IMG/VR virus record: IMGVR_UViG_2563366990_000002
Location: 1-14,868 of that record
Strand: one strand, 5' to 3'
Source: a virus
Lineage: Duplodnaviria > Heunggongvirae > Uroviricota > Caudoviricetes
Length of the DNA stretch: 14,868 nucleotides
Below are positions 319 to 14,653 of the stretch, in pieces; the first letter of the stretch is position 1, and each line of letters begins with the position of its first letter. A model generated the notes under the pieces. It was not told the DNA's origin. It was given only the letters and a program-made list of their open reading frames with translations, and ran no database searches. Position numbers and translations under genes: made by a program.

Positions 319-322
319 GGCA

Positions 323-784: not shown

Positions 785-785
785 G

Positions 786-1931
786 TCAGATCTCCAGTGC
801 TGTGTCGAGTTCAATACTTACGCCAATGGCTTTTGCGCTCTCGTAGGGGCGTACCACAATGTAAATCTGCACGTGTGTACTGCTGGTCCAGACGATGGTG
901 ATATCCCCGTCCTGTGGCGGTTTAACCTCGCCGGGGAACGGTACGCCGTTAATCTCCGTGGCGAGCGCCATTTCACGCAGCGTGCGGCTGAAATATGTCT
1001 GGCTGGCGGCAATGCTGCCCGGTGTGCTGTTGAGTGCGCGATCCGCAAGGCGGGCAATGGCGCGCAGACGTACACGGCGGGAGACCTTATCCACCACGCG
1101 CACGTTTTCGATGACCTGGTAATCGCCCCCCTCCACATCAAGGGTGCGTCCGTCTGACCAGTAGAGCCCGTCGAAATCGTGATACCACATGGGCACGCTG
1201 AAGCGTTTGCCTTCCAGCGAGCGCAGCGTGGCCAGCTCAAGGGGCTGTTTCTTGCCGTCCTGCGGGATCTCATCGTTACCCATCGCCACCAGGGCACCGG
1301 TTGCCACACGTGCCGGACTGTCCGCAACGGTGACGGAAGGATTACAGAGACGGCCCGCCAGTACGCCGGGCTCATTTCCCCATAAGCGGGGAACCACCAT
1401 CACGCCAGGTGCTGCCACGCCGTCCTGTATGGCACTGATGCGGGTGACGTATGCCGCCCATGCCTCATCCTTGCCCGGTCCGGCCACGCACAGCATGAAC
1501 CAGACAAAGCGGCCATAAGCGGACTGAAGCAGGGCGCGGGTTTCGGTGGCGCGGTTAACGGCATCTTTGGCCGTGATGTCAATGGCAATCACCACGCCCT
1601 CGGCAGAGGCGATGGTCTGCGCTTTTTTCACCGCGTCCACCCATGCGGCGTTAGCGTCGCCACCCTCCGGTGCCGGGGGTTTGGGTTCAGACAGAACGTG
1701 AACATAGGCAAACCAGTTCTGGCCACCGTTGGCGATTGCGGCGCTAAGCGTGGATTTAAGCAGGCTTTCATCCGGTCCCAGCACGTCGTCCAGGTCGGTC
1801 TCAGGGGAGACGGAAAGGGTGTTACCTGTGTTCTTTTTGCCATAGCCCACAAAAAGCAGCGTGCGCTCCACTTCACGGGTGGCACCGTTGAAACGGTTCT
1901 GATGGCTTACGGTTACATTCGGCCAGCTCAC
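786..1931 (-). CDS. putative phage tail sheath-like structural protein
   Basis: 381-aa ORF starting with GTG at 1931, preceded by AAGGAG at 7-nt spacing; tightly packed after the virion morphogenesis gene. Sheath assignment is from size, position and general resemblance to contractile-tail structural proteins, not from a verified motif. Confidence 0.5.
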   Translation of the reverse strand: MSWPNVTVSHQNRFNGATREVERTLLFVGYGKKNTGNTLSVSPETDLDDVLGPDESLLKSTLSAAIANGGQNWFAYVHVLSEPKPPAPEGGDANAAWVDAVKKAQTIASAEGVVIAIDITAKDAVNRATETRALLQSAYGRFVWFMLCVAGPGKDEAWAAYVTRISAIQDGVAAPGVMVVPRLWGNEPGVLAGRLCNPSVTVADSPARVATGALVAMGNDEIPQDGKKQPLELATLRSLEGKRFSVPMWYHDFDGLYWSDGRTLDVEGGDYQVIENVRVVDKVSRRVRLRAIARLADRALNSTPGSIAASQTYFSRTLREMALATEINGVPFPGEVKPPQDGDITIVWTSSTHVQIYIVVRPYESAKAIGVSIELDTALEI

Positions 1932-1942
1932 GGTGTGACTCC

Positions 1943-2707
1943 TTATCTGATATCCTGTGCGTCAACGTCCAGGCCGTAGCCCATTGCGTTCATCTGGCGT
2001 GCCAGGATGTGTGAAAATTCTTCGTTTGTTACCCCCAGAAAGACGCGCGACGGAAGGGTAATGGTCCATGTCCTTGGGCTGTTACGTTGTCGTATTCCCG
2101 GACCATCACTGCTGTGAAGGTCGCGAAAATTTTCCCAGTCGTCGCGCTCAAATCTTGCCAGCAGCCAGCCTGCCTGTCGGTTAGATACCCTTCTCCGTAT
2201 CATTGACAGGGTGGCTTTTCGCCAGCGCTTGCCGCTTTTCAGCTCAAGCCCCCATGCTCTCAGCGCCTGTGCCTGCTTCAGGGAACACGGTACGGAACGC
2301 CCCGGTTTTTTGTGCCGGAAGCTGTCGCCGTGATAGCGGATGGTGGCGCCGTTGTGATGTGCCCACGCGACGTTACTCGCCGACGCTGTCGGGCCGTATC
2401 TGACTGCGCGGAAATACACCTTCACCGCGTCCTGTCCCGGTATCTCCCGCACTGCCATAAGGCGCGGGAGTTTTTTAAGCATCTTTCCGGTGTTCTTGCC
2501 TGCCTTCTTTTTTTTATTTTTCCGTGGTTCCCACGGCGTGCCGTCTGGTGCGCACTGGTTGCGCTGATGGCGTCTGGCTGCGGCGATAATGCCGTGCCGG
2601 GCAATACGCCATAACAGGCGATGGCGTTTTTTCGGGGGCAGATCCAGCGACTGAAGCATCGCCTGCGCTTCTGCCAGCTGCTGCGGGTTCAGCTGGCCGC
2701 TTATCAT
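1943..2707 (-). CDS. phage virion morphogenesis / tail completion protein (P2 gpS-like family), longer than P2 gpS
   Basis: 254-aa ORF whose ATG overlaps the stop of the upstream gene (ATGA at 2704-2707). The N-terminal region with a PDGTPWEPRK-type segment and basic patch resembles the virion morphogenesis family as I recall it. Contains a Lys-rich stretch encoded by an A8 run. Confidence 0.6.
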   Translation of the reverse strand: MISGQLNPQQLAEAQAMLQSLDLPPKKRHRLLWRIARHGIIAAARRHQRNQCAPDGTPWEPRKNKKKKAGKNTGKMLKKLPRLMAVREIPGQDAVKVYFRAVRYGPTASASNVAWAHHNGATIRYHGDSFRHKKPGRSVPCSLKQAQALRAWGLELKSGKRWRKATLSMIRRRVSNRQAGWLLARFERDDWENFRDLHSSDGPGIRQRNSPRTWTITLPSRVFLGVTNEEFSHILARQMNAMGYGLDVDAQDIR

Positions 2708-3177
2708 TCGCGGCTCCTGCTGACAAACAGCTCCATGGTTTCCGCCGTCCAGATTTCAGGGTTAACCAGTGTCCAGCGTTTCCCCCTGTACGGAACGGGG
2801 CCGTCTTCCTGCACCCGGATGATCAGCGGGTCAGCCAGTCCCACCGTGATATCGAGAAGGCACGAGTCCTCATCGTTAAACTGCGGGTCGACGTTCACAT
2901 CCTCCGGGCGGAATTCCTCCCTCAGTGGGTCCGCGTGCTCTTCCAGCCAGGCCATGACCAGCGCGTAAACCAGCCCCGGTGAGTATTTACGGAACGGGAA
3001 GTTATCCCATGCAATCACGCCGGTGTACGTCATCACGCCCATGCGGATCTGGTCGTTACCCAGCGCCTTCTGACTGCGGATAAGCTGCGCGTCTTCCTGA
3101 CTGCTCATGAAGAACTGCATGGCGTCAGGCGGCAGATTTTCGGTAATGAAGGCGGTCAGGCTTTCCAGCTGGTTCAT
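2704..3177 (-). CDS. phage tail completion / head-tail joining protein (P2 gpR-like, tentative)
   Basis: 157-aa ORF; its ATG overlaps the stop of gpL (ATGA at 3174-3177) and its stop overlaps the start of the next gene. Position directly after gpL and before the gpS-like gene, plus size, suggest a gpR-like completion protein. Confidence 0.5.
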   Translation of the reverse strand: MNQLESLTAFITENLPPDAMQFFMSSQEDAQLIRSQKALGNDQIRMGVMTYTGVIAWDNFPFRKYSPGLVYALVMAWLEEHADPLREEFRPEDVNVDPQFNDEDSCLLDITVGLADPLIIRVQEDGPVPYRGKRWTLVNPEIWTAETMELFVSRSRE

Positions 3178-3647
3178 ATGATGTGCACTCCTGCGCGTCT
3201 GTGCCCCAGCATGTTACGCATGACCAGCGAGGCTTCAGCCAGTAAGGTGGCGCGTGTGTCCTCGCTTTCCTGCCCCGGATAGGTTTCACGGCGACCAATG
3301 GTGGCGAACTCGCCCATAAGATCGGCCTTGGCACGGGCATAAACGGCCTTTTTGTACTGTGCGACCAGCTGGGTTTCATCGCCCATCCTGGCCCCCGGTA
3401 CGTCTGCGGCGCGTTCATGCCCCTGCGCCTTCCAGTGCGCCACAACCGGCGCCAGCGTGGTGTTCACCTCGGCCACTGCGGCAAGCAGCGCCATGGCCGC
3501 CGTGTCGTCGGGTAAATCAGCCGGAAGCGTGCGTGACCCCTGAAGCTCAGCCAGATCAAGGTCCGGCCAGAACGGCTCGCCGTTTGTCACCGTCTGCGGT
3601 GTGGATTTCAGCGGTTTACCGCTGACGCTGAAGCTCGGTTCGCTCAT
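3174..3647 (-). CDS. L: phage head completion / stabilization protein (P2 gpL family)
   Basis: 157 aa from ATG at 3647 (MSEPSFSVSGKPL...), preceded by GAGG at about 6-nt spacing. Size is close to P2 gpL (about 169 aa) and it sits immediately after the small terminase gene as in the P2 O-N-M-L order. Confidence 0.8.
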   Translation of the reverse strand: MSEPSFSVSGKPLKSTPQTVTNGEPFWPDLDLAELQGSRTLPADLPDDTAAMALLAAVAEVNTTLAPVVAHWKAQGHERAADVPGARMGDETQLVAQYKKAVYARAKADLMGEFATIGRRETYPGQESEDTRATLLAEASLVMRNMLGHRRAGVHII

Positions 3648-3754
3648 GACGTGCCTCATATGAATAAAAAGGCGGGCTGTCCGGGATTCCACGGCCATAC
3701 AGTTTCCGTCACTGATGCCTCCTCCCGCGCCCGCCCGGCCCTGCGGGTAGTCGT

Positions 3755-4453
3755 TTACGCTACATTAAGGGCGCTGATGCGTGCCCTGATGCGCGCCCTG
3801 ATACTTTTTACGCCAGCGGTACGGCTCAGTGCTGCCGCCTGTGCCAGGTATGCGTCTGCCTTTTCCAGTACGGCAGTATCATTAATCGCGGTGGCTCTCG
3901 GTTTGCCCGCCTCGTCGCGCAGAAGATACAGCCCGGCAAATCTGAACCACTTCGCGCGGATTTCCTCATGCAGCCGCCACGTGGTGGTGACGTTCCTGAA
4001 GGTGCGCGAAAAATACGGCTCTATGCTGTGTCCGGCCTCGCTGTTGTCGGTGGCCCACTGCAGCACCGTGTCGGCCACGAAGGCGGGCAGGGTGCTACGG
4101 AAGTTGTCCGGCGTGGCCTGGCCTTCACTGATGGCAATGTCTGCCCAGTCAAGGGCGCGACTCAGGTCGCCCGTGTCGAACAGCCAGATGATGCAGTACA
4201 CCAGTACCGGGCAGGCGTGGCGCTTTCCGTCAGCGATATAGCGCTCCGCGACGGGCAGCCAGCGCGGCAGGAGAATGTCGCGCTTGAACGCCAGCCGCTC
4301 TTCACGGACCGGAAGACTGCGCAGCCGTGCCACATCGCGATCAAGCTCCGCGCGTAACAGGTGGAAGCTGACCGGGGAGGCCGTCAGCGCCTCCCGGCGT
4401 TCGAGTGCCTCCTGTGTGCGGATTTTCGCCCGGTGTCGCTGGCAGGGTGTCAT
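3755..4453 (-). CDS. M: terminase small (endonuclease) subunit, P2 gpM family
   Basis: 232-aa ORF directly after the major capsid gene; size and position match P2 gpM (about 247 aa). C-terminus carries an in-frame IRARIRAR repeat. Confidence 0.85.
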   Translation of the reverse strand: MTPCQRHRAKIRTQEALERREALTASPVSFHLLRAELDRDVARLRSLPVREERLAFKRDILLPRWLPVAERYIADGKRHACPVLVYCIIWLFDTGDLSRALDWADIAISEGQATPDNFRSTLPAFVADTVLQWATDNSEAGHSIEPYFSRTFRNVTTTWRLHEEIRAKWFRFAGLYLLRDEAGKPRATAINDTAVLEKADAYLAQAAALSRTAGVKSIRARIRARISALNVA

Positions 4454-4470
4454 TGCGCCGCCCTCTGTGC

Positions 4471-5490
4471 TTATGCGCCGACGTCTTCGGCTTCTTCTGC
4501 GCCCTTGATGGTCAGCTTGTCGTAGGCCGCGTAAATTTCGTCGTGCTCCACGGCGTAACCTTCCATGCGCAGATAGTTATTTTCAAAACGCTTGCGATCG
4601 TCGTTCCACTCCGCACGGCGCTGACGGGTGCCGCGCTGCGTGTAGATGTGAAGGTTTGCCAGCGTGGTGACAATCAGGCGCCCTTCCGGCATGAACGGCG
4701 GGGTGTATGCTGTCAGCCCGGCGATCTGGCGACCGATAAGCTGCGCGGCCACTTTTTCCGTGGGGGCGTCGATGGCGTTAAGCAGCGTCACCTTGTCCTG
4801 TGCCACAAGATCGGGCGCAACCAGTACCACCAGATCCGGATGACCGCGATACGACTCATCAATGAGGGTATGCACGAGGTCTGCCACGGCTGCATCCAGC
4901 CCGATAAAGTCGCCACCCTTGCCCAGCGTCGGGCCAGCCTCCACGATCTGTTTTGCGCTGCGGCCTTTGACGATGGCATGCCAGCCGGTGTTGACGTCCT
5001 CGCCGTTTTTGTTGGTTACCGGGTCGGTATCTTCGGCTACGCTGGTACCGTTAAAGGCGATGCGCAGGATATCCAGCGCAATCTGTCTGTTAACGAAATT
5101 CTGAATGCGGTTAAAGAACTCGTTTTCACTTCCTGCGTTCGCCCAGGTGACCAGTGTGGTGTACAGGAGGTGGGCGCCGGAATCGGTTTCAGCCAGCTTG
5201 TATTCATTCCCGGTAACACCCAGCGGAAGGGTGAAGCGGGCATTTTTTTTACGTCCGGTATGGAGGCCCGGAACGCCGGTGGTAACCACCTGGCCTGTCA
5301 CCTGTTCAACATCCAGCACGTTCGGCAGTTTTGATAAAAACTCGTCGGAGTGCATGATGGCGTCACGCAGCGCGGTCTCCTTCGGGTCAGACAGCGCAAA
5401 ATAGCGTGTGACGTCGTCAACTCCGTTTGCCGCACCCAGCCCGGCAGCGTACTTACGAAGCAGTGATTCGGTTTTCTGGTTCAGTTGCAT
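4471..5490 (-). CDS. N: major capsid protein, P2 gpN family
   Basis: 339-aa ORF between the scaffold and small terminase genes; size close to P2 gpN (about 357 aa) and conserved gene order. Uninterrupted long ORF with normal amino-acid composition. Confidence 0.9.
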   Translation of the reverse strand: MQLNQKTESLLRKYAAGLGAANGVDDVTRYFALSDPKETALRDAIMHSDEFLSKLPNVLDVEQVTGQVVTTGVPGLHTGRKKNARFTLPLGVTGNEYKLAETDSGAHLLYTTLVTWANAGSENEFFNRIQNFVNRQIALDILRIAFNGTSVAEDTDPVTNKNGEDVNTGWHAIVKGRSAKQIVEAGPTLGKGGDFIGLDAAVADLVHTLIDESYRGHPDLVVLVAPDLVAQDKVTLLNAIDAPTEKVAAQLIGRQIAGLTAYTPPFMPEGRLIVTTLANLHIYTQRGTRQRRAEWNDDRKRFENNYLRMEGYAVEHDEIYAAYDKLTIKGAEEAEDVGA

Positions 5491-5501
5491 GTTGCGTATC
5501 C

Positions 5502-6560
5502 TTAAACAAAGTCAAACGGTTTTTCGCTTTCTGCCGGTGTGCCGGCCGGGCGTGGCGTGATGCCGGTGGCTGACAGCTTCGTGGTCAGGTCGTTAAGTTT
5601 TTCGGCAATGGCTTTGATTTCTTCTTTGTCGGTGTCGTCCCGGCGACGGGCGGCAAAGCGGCGGTAACGTTCGCCTTTTTCCGGTGTGATGGTGCTGAAG
5701 GCTTTGATGGCGTCTTCCAGCTTCGCTTTTGCAGCGGTAAAGGCTTCGGCCTTAACCTCGTCTTCCGGGGCGGCTTTCACTTCTTCTGCCAGCTCTGCCA
5801 CCTCTGCGGCGGCGTCGGCGATTTCGGCGGCGATTTCCGCGACTTCGGCTTTTGCTTCTTCCGGCGTGTCTGCTGTGCCCTCGCCAGCGGCAGCGGCGCT
5901 GCCGCCTTCCACCAGGGTGATCAGCTTTTCAAGCAGTGCTTTAATTTCGTCCATTTTTGCGTCCTCGCCTGTATCAGGCTTACTGGTATCGGTGTTGTCG
6001 GTGTTGTCGGTCTGTCCTGCGCTGAACAGGCGTTTCAGGAATGATTCAGGTTTACTGGGGGCATGGGTGGTGTCCGGTGACAGGCTGCCCAGCGTGAACG
6101 TCTGGCAGTTCGCCCGCTGTGCTGTGTATTCCTCGTTGTTCAGGGTGAAGCGTATTTTTTCCGTCCCCAGACTGGCGGGGATATCCGTCACCGCCACGCC
6201 CAGGAGATAGTCGCGTCCGCTCCGGGCGAAGTTCTCCACTATCTCGGCGGATGTGAACAGCTTCTGCCCCAGTCTGTTGGCTTCAATCAGGTACTGGTTA
6301 GGGACCAGCCGCGCGTAGAGGCGGGTTTTACCGTCCTCGCCGGTTTCCGCTTTCAGTGAGTCCACTTCACCCAGATTACTGGTGTACTGGCGGTGTCCGA
6401 TTTCTTCCTCATGCCAGGGCCACAGCATCGCCGTGTAGGTGTTGCGGGAATAGGTTTCAGCGGCATCAGTCAGCCACTGCGGATCAATTTCGCGGCCGTC
6501 AACGGTCGGTCCTGATGTGGCGATACATATCCAGTCGGTCATCAACGTTGGCTGCGGCAT
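5502..6560 (-). CDS. O: capsid scaffolding protein, P2 gpO family, with extended Ala/Glu-rich region
   Basis: 352 aa from ATG at 6560 (MPQPTLMTDW...), preceded by GAGG. First gene of the minus-strand late operon, followed by the capsid gene. Long Ala/Glu/Lys-rich coiled-coil-like region typical of scaffold proteins. The ORF track's longer 408-aa version starts inside the regulatory region and is less likely. Confidence 0.85.
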   Translation of the reverse strand: MPQPTLMTDWICIATSGPTVDGREIDPQWLTDAAETYSRNTYTAMLWPWHEEEIGHRQYTSNLGEVDSLKAETGEDGKTRLYARLVPNQYLIEANRLGQKLFTSAEIVENFARSGRDYLLGVAVTDIPASLGTEKIRFTLNNEEYTAQRANCQTFTLGSLSPDTTHAPSKPESFLKRLFSAGQTDNTDNTDTSKPDTGEDAKMDEIKALLEKLITLVEGGSAAAAGEGTADTPEEAKAEVAEIAAEIADAAAEVAELAEEVKAAPEDEVKAEAFTAAKAKLEDAIKAFSTITPEKGERYRRFAARRRDDTDKEEIKAIAEKLNDLTTKLSATGITPRPAGTPAESEKPFDFV

Positions 6561-6726
6561 CGTGGCCTCTTTTACGTGAAAATCTGAAGAACTCCGGTGA
6601 GTGTCGGGATTTTTACAGCGGGGGGCTACTGGCTGAATTCGGCTGTCTTCGGATAACGTGGGATAGCCGAACACAGCCGAAATTTTCTGCCTGAATGCGG
6701 GCCGGATGCGCCGCCATAATGGGCGC
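6561..6726. promoter_or_regulatory. divergent late-promoter region between the gpO and gpP operons
   Basis: 166-bp non-coding gap between divergently transcribed capsid and terminase/portal operons. Contains a 13-bp imperfect inverted repeat (CGGCTGTCTTCGG at 6640-6652, CCGAACACAGCCG at 6667-6679) and a TGT-N10-ACA element at 6602-6617. In P2 the equivalent region carries Ogr-activated late promoters. Confidence 0.55.
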
Positions 6727-8529
6727 ATGGCTAAATATTCTGACGAAATTAAAGAGGCGGCCCGCTCGCTTTATCTGAAGCGGTGGCATCCCCGAGATAT
6801 TGCGGCGGAGCTCGGTATTCCGCCGCGCACGGTTTACCACTGGTGTGATGTGGGGCAGTGGGCCGCCCTGCTGCCCGCTGAATCCGTTGAGGAGGTGATC
6901 GCCCGGCGTATTGATGTGCTGACCGGGCGCGAGGGTAAGACGGAGTGCGAACTTGCCGAACTGCGCGAGCTTATCGCACAGCACGTGAAGATTATCGCCC
7001 AGAAAAACAAACACGCTGAAAGGATGGCGGAAATTGCCGCCACGCGTCCGGCAGTGTGCGACGACGGTGTGGCGGCGACCAGCGGCGGGGGGGAAGGGAA
7101 AAAGCGGCGCTACCGGAAAAACAACGTTTCCGGGCTGACTGCTGAAATGCTGGATGCATGGGCGCGTAAAAATCTTTATGCCTACCAGCTGCACTGCCGC
7201 GAGAACCGGCACCGTGAGTGGCGTTTCATCCTCAAGAGTCGCCAGATAGGCATGACCTGGTATTTTGCATGGGAGGCGTTCGAAGATGCGGTGGTGACTG
7301 GTGATAACCAGATATTCTTTTCTGCGTCACGGGTTCAGGCGGAAATCTTCCGCGAATATATTATTAATTTCGCCCTGCAGTTCGGGATCACGCTCACGGG
7401 TAAGCATATCCGTTTAAGCAATGGCGCAATGCTGCGTTTCCTGTCCACCAATGCCAGTACCGCCCAGGGATTTAACGGCCACCTTTACGGCGATGAGGTG
7501 TTCTGGATCCCAAAATTCACGCGACTGCATGAAGTGGCCTCGGCAATGGCAACCCACGACAAATACCGCACGACGTACTTTTCGACACCCAGCGCCAAAA
7601 CCCACCAGGCTTATCTGGTCTGGAACGGTGACGACTGGCGCGGGGATGATCCGGCGCGTCGTGCTGTTGAGTTTCCGAAAGAAAGCGCGATGCGTGTGGG
7701 CTGTGAATGCCCTGACGGGATCTGGCGCTACATTATCCGGCTGGAAGAGGCGGTGGCGGGTGGCCTGTCTGCACGGGTTGATATTGAACGTATCAGGAAC
7801 CGCTACAACCCGACCACCTATGCGATGCTGTACGGCTGCGAGTTTGTTGACAGCAAGGATGCGGTATTTAAGTTCTCCGAACTGGTCAGGTGTGAGGTGG
7901 AGATGGAGACGTGGGGTGACTACGATCCCACGGCGGCACGTCCGTTCGGCAATCGTGAGGTGTGGGCGGGCTTTGACCCGTCAAGGTCCGGGGATAATTC
8001 CACGTTTGTAATTGTGGCTCCGCCTGTCCATGAGGGCGAGCGGTTCCGTGTGCTCGCCGTCTGGCAGTGGCAGGGATTTAACTTCACCTGGCAGGCCGAT
8101 CAGATCCGCGAACTGATGCAGCGCTTTAACATTACCTATATCGGCATAGATATCACCGGTATCGGGAAAGGGGTGTTTGATATCGTCAGTCGCTTTGCGC
8201 CACGTGAGGCTAACGCCATTCTTTACAGCGTGGAGAGCAAAAACCGCCTGGTGATGAAAATGATAGACGTGGTGGCCCATAAGCGTATCGAGTGGGCGAA
8301 AGACGCCATTGATGAGGCCAGCCGTGAACGCACGGAGATCCCCGCGTCGTTCATGTCCATACGCCGCACCACCACAAAAAGCGGTAACGCGCTGACGTTC
8401 GTGGCGGAACGGTCGGATGTTACGGGGCATGCGGATGTGTTTTTTGCCATTTCGCACGCCGTGATTAATGAGCCTGTAGATTATGACTATGAACGCCCGT
8501 CCACATGGGCCTTCGGGAAAGCCGCATGA
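6727..8529 (+). CDS. P: terminase large (ATPase) subunit, P2 gpP family
   Basis: 600 aa from ATG at 6727 (MAKYSDEIK...); size matches P2 gpP (about 590 aa). Divergent from gpO and followed by the portal gene with a 4-nt ATGA overlap. An alternative start at 6706 would add 7 aa. Confidence 0.9.
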   Translation: MAKYSDEIKEAARSLYLKRWHPRDIAAELGIPPRTVYHWCDVGQWAALLPAESVEEVIARRIDVLTGREGKTECELAELRELIAQHVKIIAQKNKHAERMAEIAATRPAVCDDGVAATSGGGEGKKRRYRKNNVSGLTAEMLDAWARKNLYAYQLHCRENRHREWRFILKSRQIGMTWYFAWEAFEDAVVTGDNQIFFSASRVQAEIFREYIINFALQFGITLTGKHIRLSNGAMLRFLSTNASTAQGFNGHLYGDEVFWIPKFTRLHEVASAMATHDKYRTTYFSTPSAKTHQAYLVWNGDDWRGDDPARRAVEFPKESAMRVGCECPDGIWRYIIRLEEAVAGGLSARVDIERIRNRYNPTTYAMLYGCEFVDSKDAVFKFSELVRCEVEMETWGDYDPTAARPFGNREVWAGFDPSRSGDNSTFVIVAPPVHEGERFRVLAVWQWQGFNFTWQADQIRELMQRFNITYIGIDITGIGKGVFDIVSRFAPREANAILYSVESKNRLVMKMIDVVAHKRIEWAKDAIDEASRERTEIPASFMSIRRTTTKSGNALTFVAERSDVTGHADVFFAISHAVINEPVDYDYERPSTWAFGKAA

Positions 8530-9578
8530 GCAAGAAACGCAGAAACAAAACGTCACGCGTGACGAAAAAAGCATTCACGCCCGCACGTGGCAGCACAATC
8601 ACGTTTGGTCAGCCGGAACCGGTGCTGACCACCGGCACGGACTACCATAACATCTGGTATGACAACGAACACAACCACTGGCAGCTGCCGATTAACCGCC
8701 TGGCACTGGCGCAGCTCCCGAACCTTAACGCCCAGCACGGTGGGGTGCTGTATGCCCGCCGTAACATGGTGGCGGGGGGCTATACCGGTGGTGGTCTCAC
8801 AACGGACCAGATGGAACAGGCGGTATTTGACTACCTGTTGTTCGGCGATCTCGCCCTGCTCAAGGTGCGTAACGTATTCGGCGACGTCGTGGCACTTGAG
8901 CCGCTTCCGTCGCTGTATCTCCGGCGCCGCAAAACCGGTGAGTTCGTGGTGCTTCAGGAAGGTCCCGCGCTGGTCTATACGCCGGAAGATATTATCTTTC
9001 TGCGGATGTATGATCCGCGTCAGCAAATTTACGGGCTGCCGGATTATATCGGTGGCATCCACTCGGCGCTGCTGAACAGCGAGGCCAGCCTTTTTCGTCG
9101 CCGTTACTACAACAACGGGGCGCATATGGGCTTTTTGCTGTATACGAACGACCCTGGGATCACCACGGAGATGGAGGATGAGATCCGCGAGAAGGTGGCG
9201 GAGTCTAAGGGGCTGGGAAATTTCCGCAATCTGTACATCAACATCCCCAAAGGTTCGCCGGATGGGGTGAAAATTATTCCGATTGGTGAGGTGAGCGCCA
9301 AGGATGAATTTTCAAACATCAAGGGGATCAGCGCCCAGGATGTGTTTACGGCACACCGCTTTCCTGCCGGTCTTGCGGGGATTATCCCCACGAACGGGGC
9401 CACCATCCCTAACCCGGAAACGACGCGTGAAACGTACCGCAAGGATGAGGTGATACCGCTTCAGCGTAAAATCATGAACGCCGTGAACAGCGATCCCGAT
9501 ATACCGGAACACCTTTATCTTTGTTTTGATGTGGATGCCGGGCATGTGGCGGAAGAAAAAGCGGTGCCGGTCGGGTAA
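8526..9578 (+). CDS. Q: portal protein, P2 gpQ family
   Basis: 350 aa from ATG at 8526 (MSKKRRNK...), overlapping the gpP stop. Size matches P2 gpQ (about 344 aa) and P-then-Q co-transcription matches P2. Confidence 0.9.
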   Translation: MSKKRRNKTSRVTKKAFTPARGSTITFGQPEPVLTTGTDYHNIWYDNEHNHWQLPINRLALAQLPNLNAQHGGVLYARRNMVAGGYTGGGLTTDQMEQAVFDYLLFGDLALLKVRNVFGDVVALEPLPSLYLRRRKTGEFVVLQEGPALVYTPEDIIFLRMYDPRQQIYGLPDYIGGIHSALLNSEASLFRRRYYNNGAHMGFLLYTNDPGITTEMEDEIREKVAESKGLGNFRNLYINIPKGSPDGVKIIPIGEVSAKDEFSNIKGISAQDVFTAHRFPAGLAGIIPTNGATIPNPETTRETYRKDEVIPLQRKIMNAVNSDPDIPEHLYLCFDVDAGHVAEEKAVPVG

Positions 9579-9615
9579 AATGTCCTCCCCGGAATACGTG
9601 TTATCGGGAGGTAAG

Positions 9616-9879
9616 ATGCGGATTTTTAAAGCCCGGTGTCCTGACTGTGGCGCACCTGCTGTCATCCGGAAGACAGACTGGAAAACCCCTGAACTTGCGG
9701 ATCTGTACTGTGCATGCAGTGATGTCGAATGCGGGCATACCTTCGTCTGTACGATGACCTTTTCCCATACCCTCAGCCCCGGTGCCCGCTCCGGTCGCAA
9801 TATGGTGAAGTTTCTTGTTGATGCCATGCGCCCGGAAGATCGCCGGTATGCGCTTGAACTACTGTCGCGGCGTTCCTGA
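9616..9879 (+). CDS. Ogr/Delta-family C4 zinc-finger transcriptional activator homolog
   Basis: 87 aa from ATG at 9616, preceded by strong GGGAGG at 4-nt spacing. Motif CPDC-x20-C-x-C-x4-C-x2-TF aligns with P2 Ogr (CPLC ... YHQCQNVNCSATF). Has a roughly 40-aa C-terminal extension relative to the zinc-finger core. Confidence 0.8.
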   Translation: MRIFKARCPDCGAPAVIRKTDWKTPELADLYCACSDVECGHTFVCTMTFSHTLSPGARSGRNMVKFLVDAMRPEDRRYALELLSRRS

Positions 9880-9895
9880 CGCGCTTCGCTTGTCT

Positions 9896-9940
9896 GCTGC
9901 TTCGCCGGGGCAAAAAGAATTTTTACCCCGGCGAAGCAGC
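9896..9940. repeat. perfect 15-bp-stem inverted repeat (GCTGCTTCGCCGGGG ... CCCCGGCGAAGCAGC) with A5/T5 loop
   Basis: Read directly from the sequence. Located 17 bp after the Ogr-like gene stop. No U-tract follows on either strand, so it is not a classic intrinsic terminator; could be an RNA stability or termination element or a protein-binding or packaging-related site. Confidence 0.7.
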
Positions 9941-9975
9941 CCTGATAAAGGGGGGGGGTGGTGTAAATTCGGACG

Positions 9976-10007
9976 TTATAAAATTAAAAAAGCGCCGTAA
10001 CGGCGCT
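9976..10007 (-). terminator. rho-independent terminator for the minus-strand 75-aa gene
   Basis: Hairpin AGCGCCG-TAA-CGGCGCT at 9991-10007 followed on the minus strand by TTTTTAATTTT (9976-9990), 30 nt downstream of the stop at 10038. Confidence 0.65.
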
Positions 10008-10037
10008 CGGGTAGAGTATTTATTCATGCAAAAATAG

Positions 10038-10265
10038 TTAATCCGGCTCCCCTCGTATTATTGTTTCTGTATGAATATCGGGAATCTGTTTTGTACCGGA
10101 TAGATATTTTACAGCAAGACTCATTAAGTCATTGTAATTATAATCCCTTCCAGCTACAGCTCCACTCAGGATGTAGGCGTCTTCAATATTGGCTGCGATG
10201 CAGGACAAGATATCAGCTAAAAGGGTTGTATCGTAGTTCGTATAGCGTTTGATTAGATGAGACAT
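10038..10265 (-). CDS. hypothetical 75-aa protein, AT-rich accessory (moron-like) gene
   Basis: ATG at 10265 preceded by GGAGG at 4-nt spacing; own terminator downstream and AT-rich upstream promoter-like region. Local GC is far below the rest of the window. No recognisable family. The ORF track's longer 90-aa version lacks a ribosome-binding site. Confidence 0.6.
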   Translation of the reverse strand: MSHLIKRYTNYDTTLLADILSCIAANIEDAYILSGAVAGRDYNYNDLMSLAVKYLSGTKQIPDIHTETIIRGEPD

Positions 10266-10445
10266 AAAACCTCCGGGTTGCTTATTAATATTGCTGGCGA
10301 AATCAGTCATTGTGTTAGCTATGTAATATTAACAGAAGTGTAAAGTGTTTTTATTCCGGGGTGGTAATGTTGCATATATTTTCTTAGTGTGTGTCGGGTG
10401 AATGAATTGCGTTGCGGTGAAAAAATCGGGCGCGTCAGTGCGGCC

Positions 10446-10601
10446 TTACTGCTGACGGCGTTCCCGGAGTTCGGTCAGTGCTGCAAGTAAATTCTCCCAC
10501 CACGTTTCTTCCACGACCGGGTTTTGTCGTGAAAGCAGCTGCTGTGCCGACTCAATCATTTTCGTAAGCTCTCTGTCGCTGATCCTCCTGGTGCTGTTCA
10601 T
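10446..10601 (-). CDS. hypothetical 51-aa protein
   Basis: ATG at 10601 (MNSTRRISDRELTK...) preceded by AAGGAG at 6-nt spacing; 48 bp downstream of the preceding ORF in the same orientation; weak hairpin plus T6 after the stop. Charged and helical in character. Confidence 0.5.
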   Translation of the reverse strand: MNSTRRISDRELTKMIESAQQLLSRQNPVVEETWWENLLAALTELRERRQQ

Positions 10602-10649
10602 GGTGCGCTCCTTTAGTTGGCTGTTTCTGGTTATGTTCATGGTCTTTGT

Positions 10650-11054
10650 TTACCTGCGTGATTGTCTGCCAGCGGCTGAATGCACATAGCGGGCAATTGC
10701 CGCTTTGCGGTTAATCGATGCCAGTGTTCTGGTGAGTTCTGCGTTGTGTTTGTGTGCCTGCTCTTCGTGGTACTGCCGCATGATTTTTCCGGCAGGCGTG
10801 AGCGGCTCCGGCTCTCCGGGCGGACGGCGCGGACGAACGGCGACAAGCCAGCTGCGGTTGGTGCTGTCCGGTCGTCCGTTGAGTATGTCGGTGATGATGG
10901 TCGTGGTGGTGCGATCGGGACTGACGACCGTGATTTCCAGCTCATCGCCCGGTTGTGGCCCCGTGGCAATGTTGTTCAGGGTCAGTAAGGGCGTGCGCTG
11001 GCGCATCAGTTCGTCAAAACGCTGTCGCTGCATGGCGCAATAAAAGCGGGTCAT
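10650..11054 (-). CDS. hypothetical 134-aa protein, translationally coupled to the replication gene
   Basis: ATG at 11054 overlaps the gpA stop (ATGA at 11051-11054). Pro/Arg-rich sequence with no recognised family. The region is GC-rich with several overlapping alternative-frame ORFs, so coding status is moderately uncertain. Confidence 0.5.
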   Translation of the reverse strand: MTRFYCAMQRQRFDELMRQRTPLLTLNNIATGPQPGDELEITVVSPDRTTTTIITDILNGRPDSTNRSWLVAVRPRRPPGEPEPLTPAGKIMRQYHEEQAHKHNAELTRTLASINRKAAIARYVHSAAGRQSRR

Positions 11055-13570
11055 TGTGGCGCCTCCGTATTCGGTGCGGGGGTGATATCAATGCGGCGGG
11101 TGCTGTCATTCCAGTACGAGGTGCGCCCGTCAGCCAGGCGCACGCGGGCACCGTGACGGACGGAAACGACGGCGCTTTCATGCAGCTGCACGCCCAGCGC
11201 ATCAAGCTCGCGGGTGATTTGTGCGGTGATGTGTGGCTCAGCGGTCAGAGCGACACTCACGCGAACGCCGCCAGCGGGCGCACTGATGCCGCCGTTTTTC
11301 ACGGTTTCCGTGTCAGGTGGCGGGCTTTTCAGCTGCCTGGTGAGTTGTTTTCGCTCTGTGGGGGTCAGTGACCTTAACCATTCACCCAAATCACCTTCCG
11401 GCAGGGTAAGTCGCTGCTCCCTGCGTCCGTCCGGCTGCCTTTCTGGCGGGTCGTTTATGGTCAGATTCTGGTCAGGGGGACAGTTATTGCCACGAGTCCA
11501 AGGTGCGGCAAAGCCGCACTCAACGTCAAAACCCTCGTCCGTGCGGTCTTCGTTTTCCGGCTTACGTCTGACCAGTTTCCAGGTGTCCGGGTGGGTGCAT
11601 ATGGTGTAGCGCTCCCCGAGTGACGGGGCGCGGACGCCGTAAATACGTTGCGGGAATTCGCCGTAGTCGTTGGCCTCTTCGGCAGTTTCGTATGCGGTGC
11701 GGACCAGGTACGTGTTGCGGGGAATGAGCACACCACCCTGGCGGGTGATATAGGTGGCAAAACATCCCACGTCGGCGGCGGCCAGTATGGCGTCAATGTC
11801 GTCATGGTCCAGACGCTGCGGGGCAGCCGGGTTACGGGCCATCTGCCCGGCAAGACGGCGGAGTTCGCGCCATACCTGGCGGGGCGGGATACCGAAGAAC
11901 TGGAACTGGTGGATGCGGTGAAGGCCTGCCCAGCCGATGGCGTTCTCCACGGTTTCGGCCATGGTTTTGCCTGATTCCTTATCGACGTAAGGTTTGCCGG
12001 TTTTCGGGTCATTCCCCATGAAGGTGCTGGCGTCCAGGTTCTTACCGATATAGGTCGCGATATAGCTTGTCGGTGTGCCTTTTGTCGGGTCGATTTTTTC
12101 GCATTTAAAACGCGGGGAGATATCATCACCCAGCTCTGCGCGGTCCTCCCTGATGGCGGCGTTGCGCATGATTTCAGTGATACGGGCTTCGTTTTCCTGG
12201 CTGGTGAATACCAGCATGTGCCAGTGCGGTGTACCGTCGTGGTGGGGCTCCACTGTGCGCACGCCGTACCAGCCCAGCCCGGCCTTGTCGATGGCCCTGC
12301 GGACGGCGGCGAAAAAGCGGTAAACCAGATAATCACTGGCATCGCGTACCGTTGCTCCGCAGTATTTCGGGTTCAGGCTGCCGTCATCGTTCACGCTGTG
12401 AAAACGGGAAGGGGCTGTGACGGTGACGAAAAACGCCACGTCGCCGCGTGCTTCGGCGACCTGCTCCATCCCCCGGACGCAGGCCATCATCTCGTTACGG
12501 CGGTTACGCGGATTAGAGAGACCTGCCCAGTAGATATCCTCAAGGCTGAACCGTTCTCCCTCTTCGTTCTCGATGTCCCAGGCCTTCAGAAAATCGCGGG
12601 TGCGCTGGCGTTTTTCGCGCCAGTCCAGTAACGCTTCATGGCTGATATATACCGACGTCTTACGTGACACCAGGCCTGCGGCGCGTAACAGCTCTTCACG
12701 CCAGATGTCCCGGAGGTGTCTTAACTGACTGTTCCACCATGTCGCACAGGAAAGGCGCATGACCGCACCCGGCACCCGTTCCGGGTCGGGGTCGGTGCGG
12801 CGGTCGGGCCTGATTTCCAGCGACGGCCAGCAGGGTGGCGTGATACCCAGTTTTAACGCCATGTGTGCCAGTGGCTGGTAGGTCAGTAACCAGGTGAGCA
12901 GGTCATCGTCACCCCTGCCGGTCTTTTCGATGACTTCATCACATGCGCGCTCCAGTGCGGTGGAAAACGCGGTGGCGGTCAGGGTGGCAAGGCGCTGGAT
13001 TTCGTCACGGCTCAGCTGTGGCAGCATAAGCAGTTCATCCAGCCGTTCGCGCGCGGCGGTGGCCTTAAAGGCCGGGGTGGCAAAGCGTTCATTCACACGG
13101 GCGATACGTTTCAGGCGGGCACGCAGCCCGTGACGAACGAAGTTATCCGCCGCATATGCGCTGTTATTCTTAAGCCCTTCCCGGCGTGCGCTCTCCTGTT
13201 TGCGGCTCAGGCGCGCCAGGTCACGGATGAGCGGACCGGCAAGAAACGGCGGCAGGGCGCGCAGCTCTGCCATGGCTTCAGATACCAGCGTTGGCGGATT
13301 TTCGCGTTTGTGTCGCGTCAGTTTTTCCAGTCTGATCCGACGCTCTTCGTCGTGATGAAGATGCGAATTAATTCGCTTCCCTTCGTCTGTGGTTGTCAGG
13401 AAGGCGACGGTTTCTTCATCCAGTCTGGCGTCAGTGCGAATATCCTCGTTGATGTAGCTCTGAATGGCCTGGCGTAATGCGGTTGGCTGCGCTCTGCCGA
13501 ACGTTTCAGGATCGATAACCGGTAGCGGGGCGTTCCACGGGTACGCCAGCTGTGCATTGTGGTCACTCAT
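11051..13570 (-). CDS. A: replication initiation endonuclease, P2 gpA family (rolling-circle HUH nickase)
   Basis: 839 aa from ATG at 13570 (MSDHNAQLAYPW...). Contains the HUH-type motif PHWHMLVF characteristic of P2 A / phiX174 A-type rolling-circle initiators; size comparable to P2 gpA (about 761 aa). The track's GTG start at 13579 is less likely than the ATG that overlaps the upstream stop. Confidence 0.9.
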   Translation of the reverse strand: MSDHNAQLAYPWNAPLPVIDPETFGRAQPTALRQAIQSYINEDIRTDARLDEETVAFLTTTDEGKRINSHLHHDEERRIRLEKLTRHKRENPPTLVSEAMAELRALPPFLAGPLIRDLARLSRKQESARREGLKNNSAYAADNFVRHGLRARLKRIARVNERFATPAFKATAARERLDELLMLPQLSRDEIQRLATLTATAFSTALERACDEVIEKTGRGDDDLLTWLLTYQPLAHMALKLGITPPCWPSLEIRPDRRTDPDPERVPGAVMRLSCATWWNSQLRHLRDIWREELLRAAGLVSRKTSVYISHEALLDWREKRQRTRDFLKAWDIENEEGERFSLEDIYWAGLSNPRNRRNEMMACVRGMEQVAEARGDVAFFVTVTAPSRFHSVNDDGSLNPKYCGATVRDASDYLVYRFFAAVRRAIDKAGLGWYGVRTVEPHHDGTPHWHMLVFTSQENEARITEIMRNAAIREDRAELGDDISPRFKCEKIDPTKGTPTSYIATYIGKNLDASTFMGNDPKTGKPYVDKESGKTMAETVENAIGWAGLHRIHQFQFFGIPPRQVWRELRRLAGQMARNPAAPQRLDHDDIDAILAAADVGCFATYITRQGGVLIPRNTYLVRTAYETAEEANDYGEFPQRIYGVRAPSLGERYTICTHPDTWKLVRRKPENEDRTDEGFDVECGFAAPWTRGNNCPPDQNLTINDPPERQPDGRREQRLTLPEGDLGEWLRSLTPTERKQLTRQLKSPPPDTETVKNGGISAPAGGVRVSVALTAEPHITAQITRELDALGVQLHESAVVSVRHGARVRLADGRTSYWNDSTRRIDITPAPNTEAPQ

Positions 13571-13983
13571 GCGTCGCACTCCCCGGCAGTCGCCGCCTGA
13601 AACGCCGCGCGGTACAGCACGAGAAGGCGCTGGTATTCACCGATAAAGTCTTCTGCGGTGTATATGCCTTTCACGGCCACGCTGTGCGTTGTCATTTCCA
13701 GAACAAGCGTCATCTCTGACGACGACCAGCTGATGGCGGTGCTGTCGGTTCCGTTGATGTGAAATAAACCAAAACCATCACCATCGCCTTTCACGTCCAC
13801 GCGGTAACGGCCGTCAACGGTGAAGGAGAAATCCCCGTATGTGGTGACGCGTCTGGCGGCCTGTTTACAGGCGCGGCGGTAATAGTCGTGCCAGTCGTTC
13901 AGGCGGGAAGCCAGCCGGGGATCCACTGCCCACATCCAGTTAAAAAAATCCTGAATATCTGAAAGTCCCTTAACGCTCTTCAT
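13567..13983 (-). CDS. hypothetical 138-aa early-operon protein
   Basis: ATG at 13983 preceded by GGAGG at 5-nt spacing; stop overlaps the gpA start (ATGA at 13567-13570). Position corresponds to the small ORFs upstream of A in P2-like early operons. Confidence 0.6.
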   Translation of the reverse strand: MKSVKGLSDIQDFFNWMWAVDPRLASRLNDWHDYYRRACKQAARRVTTYGDFSFTVDGRYRVDVKGDGDGFGLFHINGTDSTAISWSSSEMTLVLEMTTHSVAVKGIYTAEDFIGEYQRLLVLYRAAFQAATAGECDA

Positions 13984-14051
13984 GAGAACCTCCGGTAACA
14001 GACGTGCGGAAGCCTCCCGCGCACGGGTGCGGGATGGCTTCAGGATGTTGT

Positions 14052-14333
14052 TTAGTGGTGGTGTTGCTGCTGGTTGATAAGGTCCTGCAGTTCTGCCAGG
14101 TCTTCGGCCAGATAGCTGAAGACTGCCGCGTAATACCCGGCAGCGATACCATCGTTAAGTCGATGTAATGCGTTTGACTGCATGATGAAGGTGACAGATG
14201 CAGCCCGATGGAGTCTGCGGTTAATTTCAGTGCGGATGTGAAGACGCTCAGCGCGGGCGCGCTGTTGGTGACTGGAGTTCAGACGTGTGCTCTTCCGATC
14301 TGCGCGGGCGCGCTGTTGTTTGCGGTTTGCCAT
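14052..14333 (-). CDS. hypothetical small early-operon protein, reading frame contaminated by a 51-bp adapter-derived insertion
   Basis: ATG at 14333 preceded by GAGG. The encoded segment ADRKSTRLNSSHQQRAR (and SEEHTSELQSPTARPR in the overlapping 14248..14514 minus-strand track ORF) comes from the Illumina adapter plus duplicated flank; the native protein is probably about 76 aa. Confidence 0.5.
   Translation of the reverse strand: MANRKQQRARADRKSTRLNSSHQQRARAERLHIRTEINRRLHRAASVTFIMQSNALHRLNDGIAAGYYAAVFSYLAEDLAELQDLINQQQHHH
14268..14301 (+). other. Illumina TruSeq adapter sequence (GTGACTGGAGTTCAGACGTGTGCTCTTCCGATCT), assembly contamination
   Basis: Exact 34-nt match to the standard Illumina adapter as I recall it, flanked by a perfect 17-bp direct duplication GCGCGGGCGCGCTGTTG at 14251-14267 and 14302-14318. 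Confidence 0.9.
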
Positions 14334-14505
14334 GGTGTGGCCTCTTTGGTTGTGAATTTTGAAAACTCACCATCCAGAGGTGGAAAACTCGGGGTGGCGA
14401 GGCGTACAGGGTTTCCACAACCGGTAACCAAAGAACCCGGCCCGACCGAAGTCGGCCCCGTACGCCCCGCCATAATTCTGACGCGAAAAAGACGTGGCAA
14501 TACAG

Positions 14506-14531
14506 TACGCACAAAAAAACCGCTGGCGCGG
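14506..14531 (-). terminator. candidate intrinsic terminator on the minus strand
   Basis: On the minus strand, a short stem AACCGC-GCCA-GCGGTT followed by a T7 run (plus-strand A7 at 14513-14519), about 125 nt downstream of the truncated minus-strand ORF ending at 14654. Stem is short, so strength is uncertain. Confidence 0.4.
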
Positions 14532-14653
14532 TTGTGCGCTTTGGTTATCGGCGGGGTGGAAATCCCGGCACCCGTTTTATGAGGTGCGGGAAAACTGTAA
14601 CCCGACCAGGCGAACGCTGGCAAGCGGTTTTTTTGTGTGTGCATGATGATCAC

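What the first reader, a model, noticed from the sequence alone, without database searches (positions are those of the whole stretch)
1943..14333. Extensive start/stop overlap (ATGA) chains in both late and early operons
ATGA overlaps link gpP to gpQ (8526-8529), gpL to the gpR-like gene (3174-3177), gpR-like to gpS-like (2704-2707), the 138-aa ORF to gpA (13567-13570) and gpA to the 134-aa ORF (11051-11054). This indicates translational coupling and supports the chosen starts, including the coding status of the uncharacterised 134-aa ORF.
Basis: seen in the sequence. Interest (0 to 1): 0.2.

Follow-up and report, generated by a model that had tools for sequence, protein, structure and literature searches.

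The report
Ordinary stop/start gene overlaps in prophage
Five pairs of neighbouring genes in this P2-like E. coli prophage really do share the four bases ATGA (stop of one gene, start of the next), but this is the commonest gene junction in bacteria and phages, so it confirms the gene map rather than revealing anything new.

Summary
All five ATGA sites sit at the stated coordinates. They are the only ATGA sites in the window that join two open frames of at least 100 codons (null mean 0.32). NCBI's annotation of a 97.8 %-identical E. coli prophage calls the same five overlaps.

The overlaps persist in diverged relatives:
- gpL→gpR: ATGA in 14 of 17 loci.
- gpP→gpQ: ATGA in 16 of 37 loci, otherwise a 1-nt or 8-nt overlap or a gap of 5-27 nt.
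- gpR→gpS: ATGA or GTGA in 10 of 16 loci.
- gpA→134-aa ORF: ATGA in 7 of 7 loci.

In many relatives the ATGA start is the only start codon available, so the chosen downstream starts hold.

The 134-aa and 138-aa ORFs are real genes. Each is open only in that frame in all homologs, with pN/pS of 0.39 and 0.26, and each belongs to a PHROG family.

Translational coupling is the standard, plausible inference, but nothing here tests it. Four of the five starts also have good Shine-Dalgarno sites.

Five of 15 same-strand junctions is not unusual for E. coli or P2-like phages.

Two side findings:
- The 134-aa protein is predicted to have an ASCH/DUF3850-like fold, like P2 Orf91 at the same position.
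- A 34-nt Illumina adapter is assembled into the window at 14268-14301.

The parts
1943..2707 (-). gpS-like tail completion/Neck1 gene (254 aa). Its start ATG 2707-2705 overlaps the gpR-like stop.
   Evidence: Pfam Phage_tail_S E 8.3e-12. phrog_26. PGAP calls the same start in L001. ATGA or GTGA is the only in-frame start in 10 relatives.
2704..2707 (-). ATGA overlap: gpR-like stop TGA and gpS-like start ATG. AGGAG Shine-Dalgarno site at 2714-2718, 6 nt upstream.
   Evidence: Shine-Dalgarno duplex -6.6 kcal/mol against a background median of -2.8.
2704..3177 (-). gpR-like tail terminator gene (157 aa), overlapped at both ends.
   Evidence: Pfam P2_Phage_GpR E 3.4e-18. phrog_65.
3174..3177 (-). 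ATGA overlap: gpL stop and gpR-like start. AGGAG at 3188-3192, 10 nt upstream.
   Evidence: Shine-Dalgarno duplex -6.9 kcal/mol. ATGA is kept in 14 of 17 related loci, down to 34-37 % protein identity, and in phage SI7.
3174..3647 (-). gpL head-tail adaptor (head completion) gene. The best-supported start is 3647 (157 aa), not the first ATG at 3698 (174 aa).
   Evidence: Pfam Phage_GPL E 4.3e-34. The conserved N-terminus MS(G/E)PSF, with a stop codon just upstream in several relatives. PGAP aa.
6727..8529 (+). gpP large terminase gene (600 aa from the conserved start MAKYSDE at 6727).
   Evidence: Pfam Terminase_6N, Terminase_6C and Terminase_5. N-terminal comparison.
8526..8529 (+). ATGA overlap: gpP stop and gpQ start. 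Only a weak GGGAAAG Shine-Dalgarno-like motif at 8515-8521.
   Evidence: Shine-Dalgarno duplex -4.3 kcal/mol. ATGA is kept in 16 of 37 related loci, and TAATG is present in 3. The alternative ATG 8505 has no Shine-Dalgarno site and no start codon occupies that position in 6 of the 12 Enterobacterales/Gilliamella relatives that keep ATGA (L008, L011, L012, L013, L019, L020).
8526..9578 (+). gpQ portal gene (350 aa).
   Evidence: Pfam Phage_portal. PGAP calls the same start.
10650..11054 (-). 134-aa gene immediately downstream of gpA. It is a real coding gene. Residues 1-75 are predicted to form an ASCH/PUA-like beta-barrel, followed by a long C-terminal helix.
11051..11054 (-). ATGA overlap: gpA stop and 134-aa gene start. 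GGAGG at 11062-11066, 7 nt upstream.
   Evidence: Shine-Dalgarno duplex -9.5 kcal/mol. ATGA is kept in all 7 loci that carry the gene. P2 gene A and orf91 have the same 4-nt overlap.
11051..13570 (-). gpA replication initiator/nickase gene (839 aa from ATG 13570), overlapped at both ends.
   Evidence: Pfam Phage_GPA E 5.4e-107. PGAP calls the same start. The upstream GTG 13579 is absent in L004-L006.
13567..13570 (-). ATGA overlap: 138-aa gene stop and gpA start. GGGGAG at 13579-13584, 8 nt upstream.
   Evidence: Shine-Dalgarno duplex -7.6 kcal/mol. ATGA is kept in 5 of 7 loci. L002/L003 have GTGA with an ATG 5 nt after the stop.
13567..13983 (-). 138-aa gene upstream of gpA. It is a real coding gene of unknown function.
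   Evidence: phrog_3237 E 1.7e-52. The only frame open in 6 homologs, pN/pS 0.26.

Best explanation
The window is part of a mosaic P2-like (Peduoviridae) prophage of E. coli. Five co-directional gene pairs are joined by the canonical -4 stop/start overlap ATGA: gpP→gpQ, gpL→gpR, gpR→gpS, 138-aa→gpA and gpA→134-aa.

All ten reading frames are genuine genes, and the ATG inside each ATGA is the real start of the downstream gene. Both points are shown.

The most likely working is inferred. Each pair is read from one mRNA. A ribosome terminating at UGA is already positioned on the AUG one base upstream. It re-initiates there (termination-reinitiation), helped by a Shine-Dalgarno site 6-10 nt upstream inside the preceding gene. 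This ties the output of the downstream protein to that of the upstream one. Such coupling would suit proteins that assemble in fixed ratios: the adaptor, tail terminator and Neck1 proteins of the head-tail joint, and the terminase with the portal.

This is the commonest junction type in bacteria and phages, so it is ordinary.
For: - Sites and frames are as stated.
- Only these 5 ATGA sites join two frames of at least 100 codons, against a null mean of 0.32.
- An independent PGAP annotation of a 97.8 % identical prophage gives the same five overlaps.
- The -4 geometry is conserved across genera while the flanking sequence diverges: L→R in 14 of 17 loci, P→Q in 16 of 37, R→S in 10 of 16 (ATGA or GTGA), A→134 in 7 of 7, 138→A in 5 of 7. 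SI7 has 4-nt overlaps at L/R and R/S.
- Where the overlap is lost at P→Q and R→S, the stop and start mostly stay close: 1-, 8-, 11- or 17-nt overlaps or gaps of 2-13 nt. Three distant P→Q loci have gaps of 17-27 nt.
- The Shine-Dalgarno duplex energies of four starts (-6.6 to -9.5 kcal/mol) lie in the best 10 % of the window background.
- No strong intrinsic terminator-like site lies on the coding strand inside either chain. The one weak match (13724-13708, -, inside the 138-aa gene) lacks a proper T run, and promoter-like sites are not enriched.
- Experiments on other gene pairs found 13 of 14 overlapping pairs strictly coupled (PMC6728339). Coupling collapsed at about 20 nt spacing, and -4 overlaps were enriched among subunits of complexes (PMC10666635).
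Against: - Nothing in the sequence measures coupling.
- Four of the five starts have Shine-Dalgarno sites good enough for independent initiation.
- No RNA structure masks any start: z-scores run from -1.3 to +1.9. Coupling by unmasking is therefore unsupported, and free ribosomes should have access.
- ATGA is mutationally 'sticky', because most single changes destroy either a stop or a start. Conservation alone therefore does not prove selection for coupling.
- Distant relatives manage with other arrangements. P2 has 1-, 8- and 11-nt overlaps. P88 has 6- and 76-nt gaps around gpA.
Confidence: 0.72

Rival explanations
1. The overlaps are real but functionally neutral. They would be products of genome compaction and of start/stop codon turnover, with each downstream gene initiated independently at its own Shine-Dalgarno site. 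Little or no dependence on upstream translation would exist.
For: - Strong Shine-Dalgarno sites precede four of the five starts.
- No inhibitory structure sits at the junctions.
- The frequency, 5 of 15, is no higher than the genome-wide background.
- Relatives swap freely between -4, -1, -8 and longer overlaps and small gaps.
Against: - In direct tests, native E. coli -4 pairs were nearly always tightly coupled, including pairs with Shine-Dalgarno sites (PMC6728339; PMC10666635).
- gpQ has only a weak Shine-Dalgarno site (-4.3 kcal/mol) yet must be made in quantity, which favours reinitiation there.
- The L→R geometry is invariant across all 14 Enterobacterales and Gilliamella loci, even though only 34-63 % of gpR residues are identical.
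Confidence: 0.24
2. Some overlaps are artefacts of start choice or of a non-coding ORF. The true gpQ or gpA start would lie elsewhere (8505 or 13579), or the 134-aa frame would be a chance ORF in GC-rich DNA.
For: - Alternative in-frame starts exist at 8505 and 13579.
- The region 10637-11054 carries four overlapping ORFs of more than 100 aa on both strands.
- tblastn of the 134-aa protein found nothing in 50,697 phage records.
- It has no Pfam or NCBIfam family.
Against: - The alternative starts are not conserved, and 8505 lacks a Shine-Dalgarno site.
- The 134-aa frame alone stays open in all homologs. It has the lowest pN/pS, and its third codon positions are the most variable: 107 variable columns against 67 and 59.
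- It matches phrog_14984 at E 2.9e-67.
- It gives a confident folded model.
Confidence: 0.03

Closest known systems
-4 nt (ATGA) overlapping unidirectional gene pairs with termination-reinitiation coupling (classic example E. coli trpB-trpA; surveyed by Huber et al. 2019 and 2023)
   Same: - The geometry is identical: UGA stop and AUG start share UG.
- The genes are co-directional.
- A Shine-Dalgarno site lies inside the upstream gene.
- The pairs encode proteins that assemble together.
   Different: Nothing differs structurally. Coupling itself is untested for these five pairs.
Bacteriophage P2 (Peduovirus P2, NC_001895): late P and O operons and the early operon
   Same: - The same genes occur in the same order: P→Q on one strand, O-N-M-L...R-S on the other, and A followed by a small ORF.
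- P2 gene A and orf91 also overlap by ATGA.
- P2 has ten 4-nt or 1-nt overlaps in all.
   Different: - P2 has a 1-nt overlap at P/Q, 8 nt at R/S and 11 nt at orf83/A.
- In P2, L is followed by X and the lysis cassette, not by R.
- P2 Orf91 (DUF3850) has no detectable sequence similarity to the 134-aa protein (hhalign probability 0.2 %). Both nevertheless point to the same solved structure, 3iuw.
Salmonella phage SI7 (Irrigatiovirus, Peduoviridae) and HP1-type tail modules
   Same: - The closest sequenced phage for the late genes, at 71 % nucleotide identity over 2529-5328.
- The same L→R→S chain with two 4-nt overlaps, followed by sheath, tube and holin.
- The tube matches Pfam Phage_HP1_Orf24 and the sheath matches DUF2586.
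   Different: The early region is unrelated to SI7.
Escherichia phage P88 (Xuanwuvirus, Peduoviridae)
   Same: - The closest sequenced phage for the gpA and derepression region, at about 80 % nucleotide identity over parts of it.
- The order derepression gene, small ORF, gpA is the same.
   Different: - P88 has no 134-aa gene; parM follows gpA after 76 nt.
- The small ORF and gpA are 6 nt apart.
- P/Q overlap by 1 nt.

Membership tests
-4 nt stop/start overlapping gene pair (termination-reinitiation coupling class) | Two adjacent co-directional genes in which the stop of the first and the start of the second share bases as ATGA. | tested here: met
   All five sites are at the stated coordinates and in the required frames.
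-4 nt stop/start overlapping gene pair (termination-reinitiation coupling class) | Both reading frames are genuine protein-coding genes, and the ATG is the true start. | tested here: met
   - Pfam or PHROG families for all ten genes.
- pN/pS and open-frame tests for the two unnamed ORFs.
- In many relatives the ATGA start is the only conserved start.
- PGAP agrees.
-4 nt stop/start overlapping gene pair (termination-reinitiation coupling class) | Both genes lie on one mRNA. | tested here: inconclusive
   No strong terminator-like site lies on the coding strand within the chains. One weak match lies inside the 138-aa gene, and promoter-like sites are not enriched. This is consensus scanning only, and no transcript data are available.
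-4 nt stop/start overlapping gene pair (termination-reinitiation coupling class) | Translation of the downstream gene depends on translation of the upstream gene reaching its stop. | not testable with these tools
   This needs reporter fusions with premature stop codons, or ribosome profiling. It is inferred from PMC6728339 and PMC10666635.
P2-like prophage (Peduoviridae) | The hallmark genes Q, P, O, N, M, L, R, S, ogr and A, in P2 order and orientation. | tested here: met
   All have Pfam matches above their curated cut-offs. The order is the same as in P2. The nearest phages are Peduoviridae.
DUF3850 / ASCH domain (P2 Orf91-like), for the 134-aa protein | Sequence match to the family profile or to P2 Orf91. 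| tested here: not met
   No Pfam hit for the protein or for 16 homologs, even at E up to 10. hhalign against Orf91 gives probability 0.2 %.
DUF3850 / ASCH domain (P2 Orf91-like), for the 134-aa protein | The ASCH/PUA-like beta-barrel fold. | tested here: met
   - This rests on a predicted model only: pLDDT 85.7, though 3 of the 5 models score below 60.
- P2 Orf91 matches 3iuw_A by sequence at E 5e-11.
- DUF3850 and ASCH phage proteins are among the best BFVD hits, at E 4e-4 to 3e-2.
DUF3850 / ASCH domain (P2 Orf91-like), for the 134-aa protein | Position immediately downstream of gene A, with a 4-nt overlap. | tested here: met
   In the window, 11051-11054. In P2, A is 28034-30319 and orf91 is 30316-30645.

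The most novel reading that the evidence does not exclude
The small gene that overlaps the 3' end of the replication gene A may be the same functional partner throughout P2-like phages. It would be an ASCH/DUF3850-fold nucleic-acid-binding protein: Orf91 in P2 and the 134-aa phrog_14984 protein here, the latter with an added long C-terminal helix. The ATGA overlap with gpA would be kept even though all sequence similarity has been lost. That would imply a stoichiometric, co-translated gpA-ASCH module with a role in rolling-circle replication.
Probability: 0.3. Interest if true: 0.3.

Novelty: already known. Interest (0 to 1): 0.08.

Why it matters
The value is mainly quality control. The overlaps and their conservation fix five gene starts. 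They also show that two unnamed ORFs, of 134 and 138 aa, are real genes in a mosaic P2-like prophage. Nothing about the overlaps themselves would surprise a specialist, because -4 ATGA junctions are the commonest junction type in E. coli and in P2. Two small additions came out of the check. The gene after gpA has a predicted ASCH/DUF3850-like fold, like P2 Orf91. The window also carries an assembled-in Illumina adapter that inflates the neighbouring ORF by 17 codons.

Tried and rejected
1. RNA folding of 75-nt windows around each junction found no structure beyond shuffled controls (z from -1.3 to +1.9). There is therefore no support for coupling by unmasking a sequestered ribosome-binding site.
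2. The P2 late-promoter motif TGT-N12-ACA gave 3 matches against 3.2 expected, none in the O/P intergenic region. The sigma-70 scan was at chance level. Operon boundaries could not be set from sequence.
3. The total ATGA count of 117, against 94.5 ± 9 in shuffles, is a slight enrichment. It was judged uninformative, and the long-ORF-joining test replaced it.
4. tblastn of the 134-aa protein against INPHARED phages found no match. Pfam and NCBIfam gave none for the 134-aa or 138-aa proteins.
5. hhalign of the 134-aa family against P2 Orf91 found no similarity. The link to Orf91 rests on predicted fold and position only.
6. A single-sequence AlphaFold2 run on the 138-aa protein gave pLDDT 44.5, which is unusable, so no fold search was run.
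7. The idea that the alternative-frame 110-aa ORF (10637-10969, -) is the real C-terminus was rejected. One Logan contig, L007, reads that way. Four other homologs keep the standard frame with conserved residues, and the alternative frames carry stops.
Full report
**What is there.** The window carries the packaging, head and neck genes and part of the early region of a P2-like prophage.
- On the minus strand lie gpO scaffold, gpN capsid, gpM small terminase, gpL adaptor, a gpR-like tail terminator, a gpS-like Neck1 protein, a DUF2586 sheath, an HP1-Orf24-type tube and a holin.
- On the plus strand lie gpP large terminase, gpQ portal and an Ogr/Delta zinc-finger gene.
- Further along the minus strand lie a derepression-family gene, a 138-aa ORF, the gpA replication protein and a 134-aa ORF.
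- Twelve complete E. coli genomes carry the same prophage at about 97-98 % identity.
- It is a mosaic. The late genes are closest to Salmonella phage SI7 (Irrigatiovirus, 71 % nucleotide identity). The gpA region is closest to phage P88 (Xuanwuvirus, about 80 %).

**Check of the observation.**
- All five ATGA tetramers are at the stated coordinates and strands.
- In each, TGA ends the upstream ORF and ATG opens the downstream ORF.
- Of the 117 ATGA sites in the window, exactly these five join two open frames of at least 100 codons. In 300 Markov simulations the mean was 0.32 and the maximum 3.
- NCBI's PGAP annotation of the 97.8 %-identical prophage in E. coli JNEC-KY171 calls the same five 4-nt overlaps.

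I collected 34 loci from other species through the portal protein and six E. coli loci through homologs of the 134-aa protein. For each junction I located the upstream stop and every in-frame start.

| Junction | Overlap kept | Other arrangements |
|---|---|---|
| gpL→gpR | ATGA in 14 of 17 loci (all Enterobacterales and Gilliamella, down to 34-37 % protein identity), and in SI7 | a 1-nt overlap or 2-3-nt gaps in three distant loci |
| gpP→gpQ | ATGA in 16 of 37 loci | TAATG in 3 loci; an 8-nt overlap or gaps of 5-27 nt in the rest |
| gpR→gpS | ATGA in 4 and GTGA in 6 of 16 loci | mostly 11- or 17-nt overlaps |
| 138-aa→gpA | ATGA in 5 of 7 loci | two loci have GTGA with an ATG 5 nt after the stop |
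| gpA→134-aa | ATGA in 7 of 7 loci | none |

- For gpL→gpR, the ATGA start is usually the only start codon available.
- For gpP→gpQ, no start codon occupies the alternative window position (8505) in half of the close relatives, and in the window it has no Shine-Dalgarno site.
- P2 itself has a 1-nt overlap at P/Q, 8 nt at R/S, 11 nt at orf83/A and 4 nt at A/orf91.
- P88 has neither early overlap and lacks the 134-aa gene.
- The five downstream starts are therefore well supported. The exact geometry is lineage-specific at three junctions, and stop and start stay close in most relatives.

**Coding status of the unnamed ORFs.** The 134-aa ORF has 35 database homologs down to 53 % identity, all in E. 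coli or in unnamed assemblies.
- Across five diverged copies the frame is the only one without stops.
- Third codon positions vary most: 107 variable columns against 67 and 59.
- Pairwise dN/dS is 0.16-0.31.
- Mean pN/pS is 0.39, against at least 1.06 in four other frames. The antisense frame that shares third positions scores 0.50 but contains stops.
- It matches phrog_14984 at E 2.9e-67.

The 138-aa ORF behaves the same way, with pN/pS 0.26 and a match to phrog_3237. Both are real genes. That evidence is independent of the overlaps.

**How it most likely works.** Four of the five starts have Shine-Dalgarno sites 6-10 nt upstream with duplex energies of -6.6 to -9.5 kcal/mol. The window background has a median of -2.8 and a 10th percentile of -6.2. 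gpQ has only a weak site at -4.3. No junction folds better than shuffled sequence. No strong terminator-like site lies inside the chains on the coding strand.

Published reporter experiments give the context.
- 13 of 14 native overlapping pairs were strictly coupled by termination-reinitiation.
- The contribution of the Shine-Dalgarno site varied from pair to pair.
- Coupling vanished at a spacing of about 20 nt.
- Overlapping pairs were enriched for subunits of complexes (PMC6728339; PMC10666635).

The L→R→S chain links three connector proteins, and P→Q links terminase and portal, which fits that pattern. I therefore favour termination-reinitiation assisted by the Shine-Dalgarno site, with confidence about 0.7. 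Independent initiation at overlaps that are merely compact is the main rival, at about 0.25. The overlaps, starts and coding status are shown. The coupling is inferred.

**How unusual it is.** Five of 15 same-strand junctions are -4. In E. coli the -4 ATGA junction is the commonest single configuration, and 24 % of unidirectional pairs fall between -8 and +6. At that rate the probability of at least 5 of 15 is 0.28. The remaining junctions of the window (+1, +4, +9, +11, +11, +17) fit the normal E. coli pattern. P2 has ten 4-nt or 1-nt overlaps. The finding is correct but ordinary.

**Side results.**
1. The AlphaFold2 model of the 134-aa protein, built from a 17-sequence alignment, has pLDDT 85.7. 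It shows an N-terminal beta-barrel and a long C-terminal helix.
   - P2 Orf91 is the DUF3850 gene that overlaps P2 gene A by ATGA. It matches 3iuw by sequence at E 5e-11.
   - DUF3850 and ASCH phage proteins are among the best BFVD hits.
   - Direct profile comparison with Orf91 is negative. The relation is positional and at the level of a predicted fold only.
2. Positions 14268-14301 (-) are a perfect 34-nt Illumina TruSeq adapter flanked by a 17-nt duplication. This 51-nt segment is absent from three homologs. It is an assembly artefact that lengthens the derepression-family ORF, whose start, 14333, is the end coordinate of the finding.
3. gpL most likely starts at 3647 and gpP at 6727.
4. 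C4 and isrK RNAs lie just upstream of the early genes.

Noticed in passing
window 14251-14318 (- strand); adapter proper at 14268-14301: A perfect 34-nt Illumina TruSeq read-1 adapter (AGATCGGAAGAGCACACGTCTGAACTCCAGTCAC) sits inside the derepression-family ORF 14052-14333. It is flanked by a 17-nt direct duplication, CAACAGCGCGCCCGCGC. The 51-nt segment is absent from three homologous prophages and adds 17 codons in frame (…DRKSTRLNSSH…). It is an assembly artefact. The hits of at least 99 % identity to unrelated Staphylococcus, Bacillus and Caulobacter phage records are probably the same adapter.
   Followed up: yes
[not shown]
   Followed up: partly
window 14390-14477 (-) and 14513-14587 (-): Rfam matches above the gathering score to C4 antisense RNA (83.4 bits) and isrK Hfq-binding RNA (64.3 bits) lie directly upstream of the derepression gene. 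This points to a P1/P4-type RNA immunity leader for the early genes.
   Followed up: no
window 9931-10662: This is a low-GC (48-50 %) cargo segment between ogr and the 134-aa gene. It is unrelated to the otherwise 97-98 % identical E. coli prophage L001, which carries a YafO-family toxin and a hypothetical gene there. In the window it holds a 90-aa ORF with no family (10038-10310, -) and a 64-aa ORF matching phrog_14672 (10446-10640, -). The strongest terminator-like hairpin of the window follows at 9990-10008.
   Followed up: partly
window 3647 vs 3698 (gpL start); 6727 vs 6706 (gpP start): The first ATG of each ORF is probably not the true start. The conserved N-termini MS(G/E)PSF… and MAKYSDE…, with upstream stops in several relatives, place gpL at 3647 (157 aa) and gpP at 6727 (600 aa). 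PGAP agrees.
   Followed up: yes
L007 3171-3587 (Logan contig ERR11711625_370): One homolog of the 134-aa gene is frameshifted in its last third. It reads the frame that corresponds to the window's 110-aa alternative ORF (10637-10969, -) and then overlaps the next gene by ATGA. This is probably a mutation or an assembly error, because four other homologs keep the standard frame.
   Followed up: partly
window 1943-3647 (-) and 13-1931 (-): gpL is followed directly by gpR and gpS, and then by a DUF2586 sheath, an HP1-Orf24-type tube and a holin. This is the SI7/HP1 arrangement. It lacks the X-holin-lysin cassette that separates L from R in P2. The gpS-like protein is 254 aa, against 150 aa in P2, and the Phage_tail_S domain covers only residues 12-124.
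   Followed up: no
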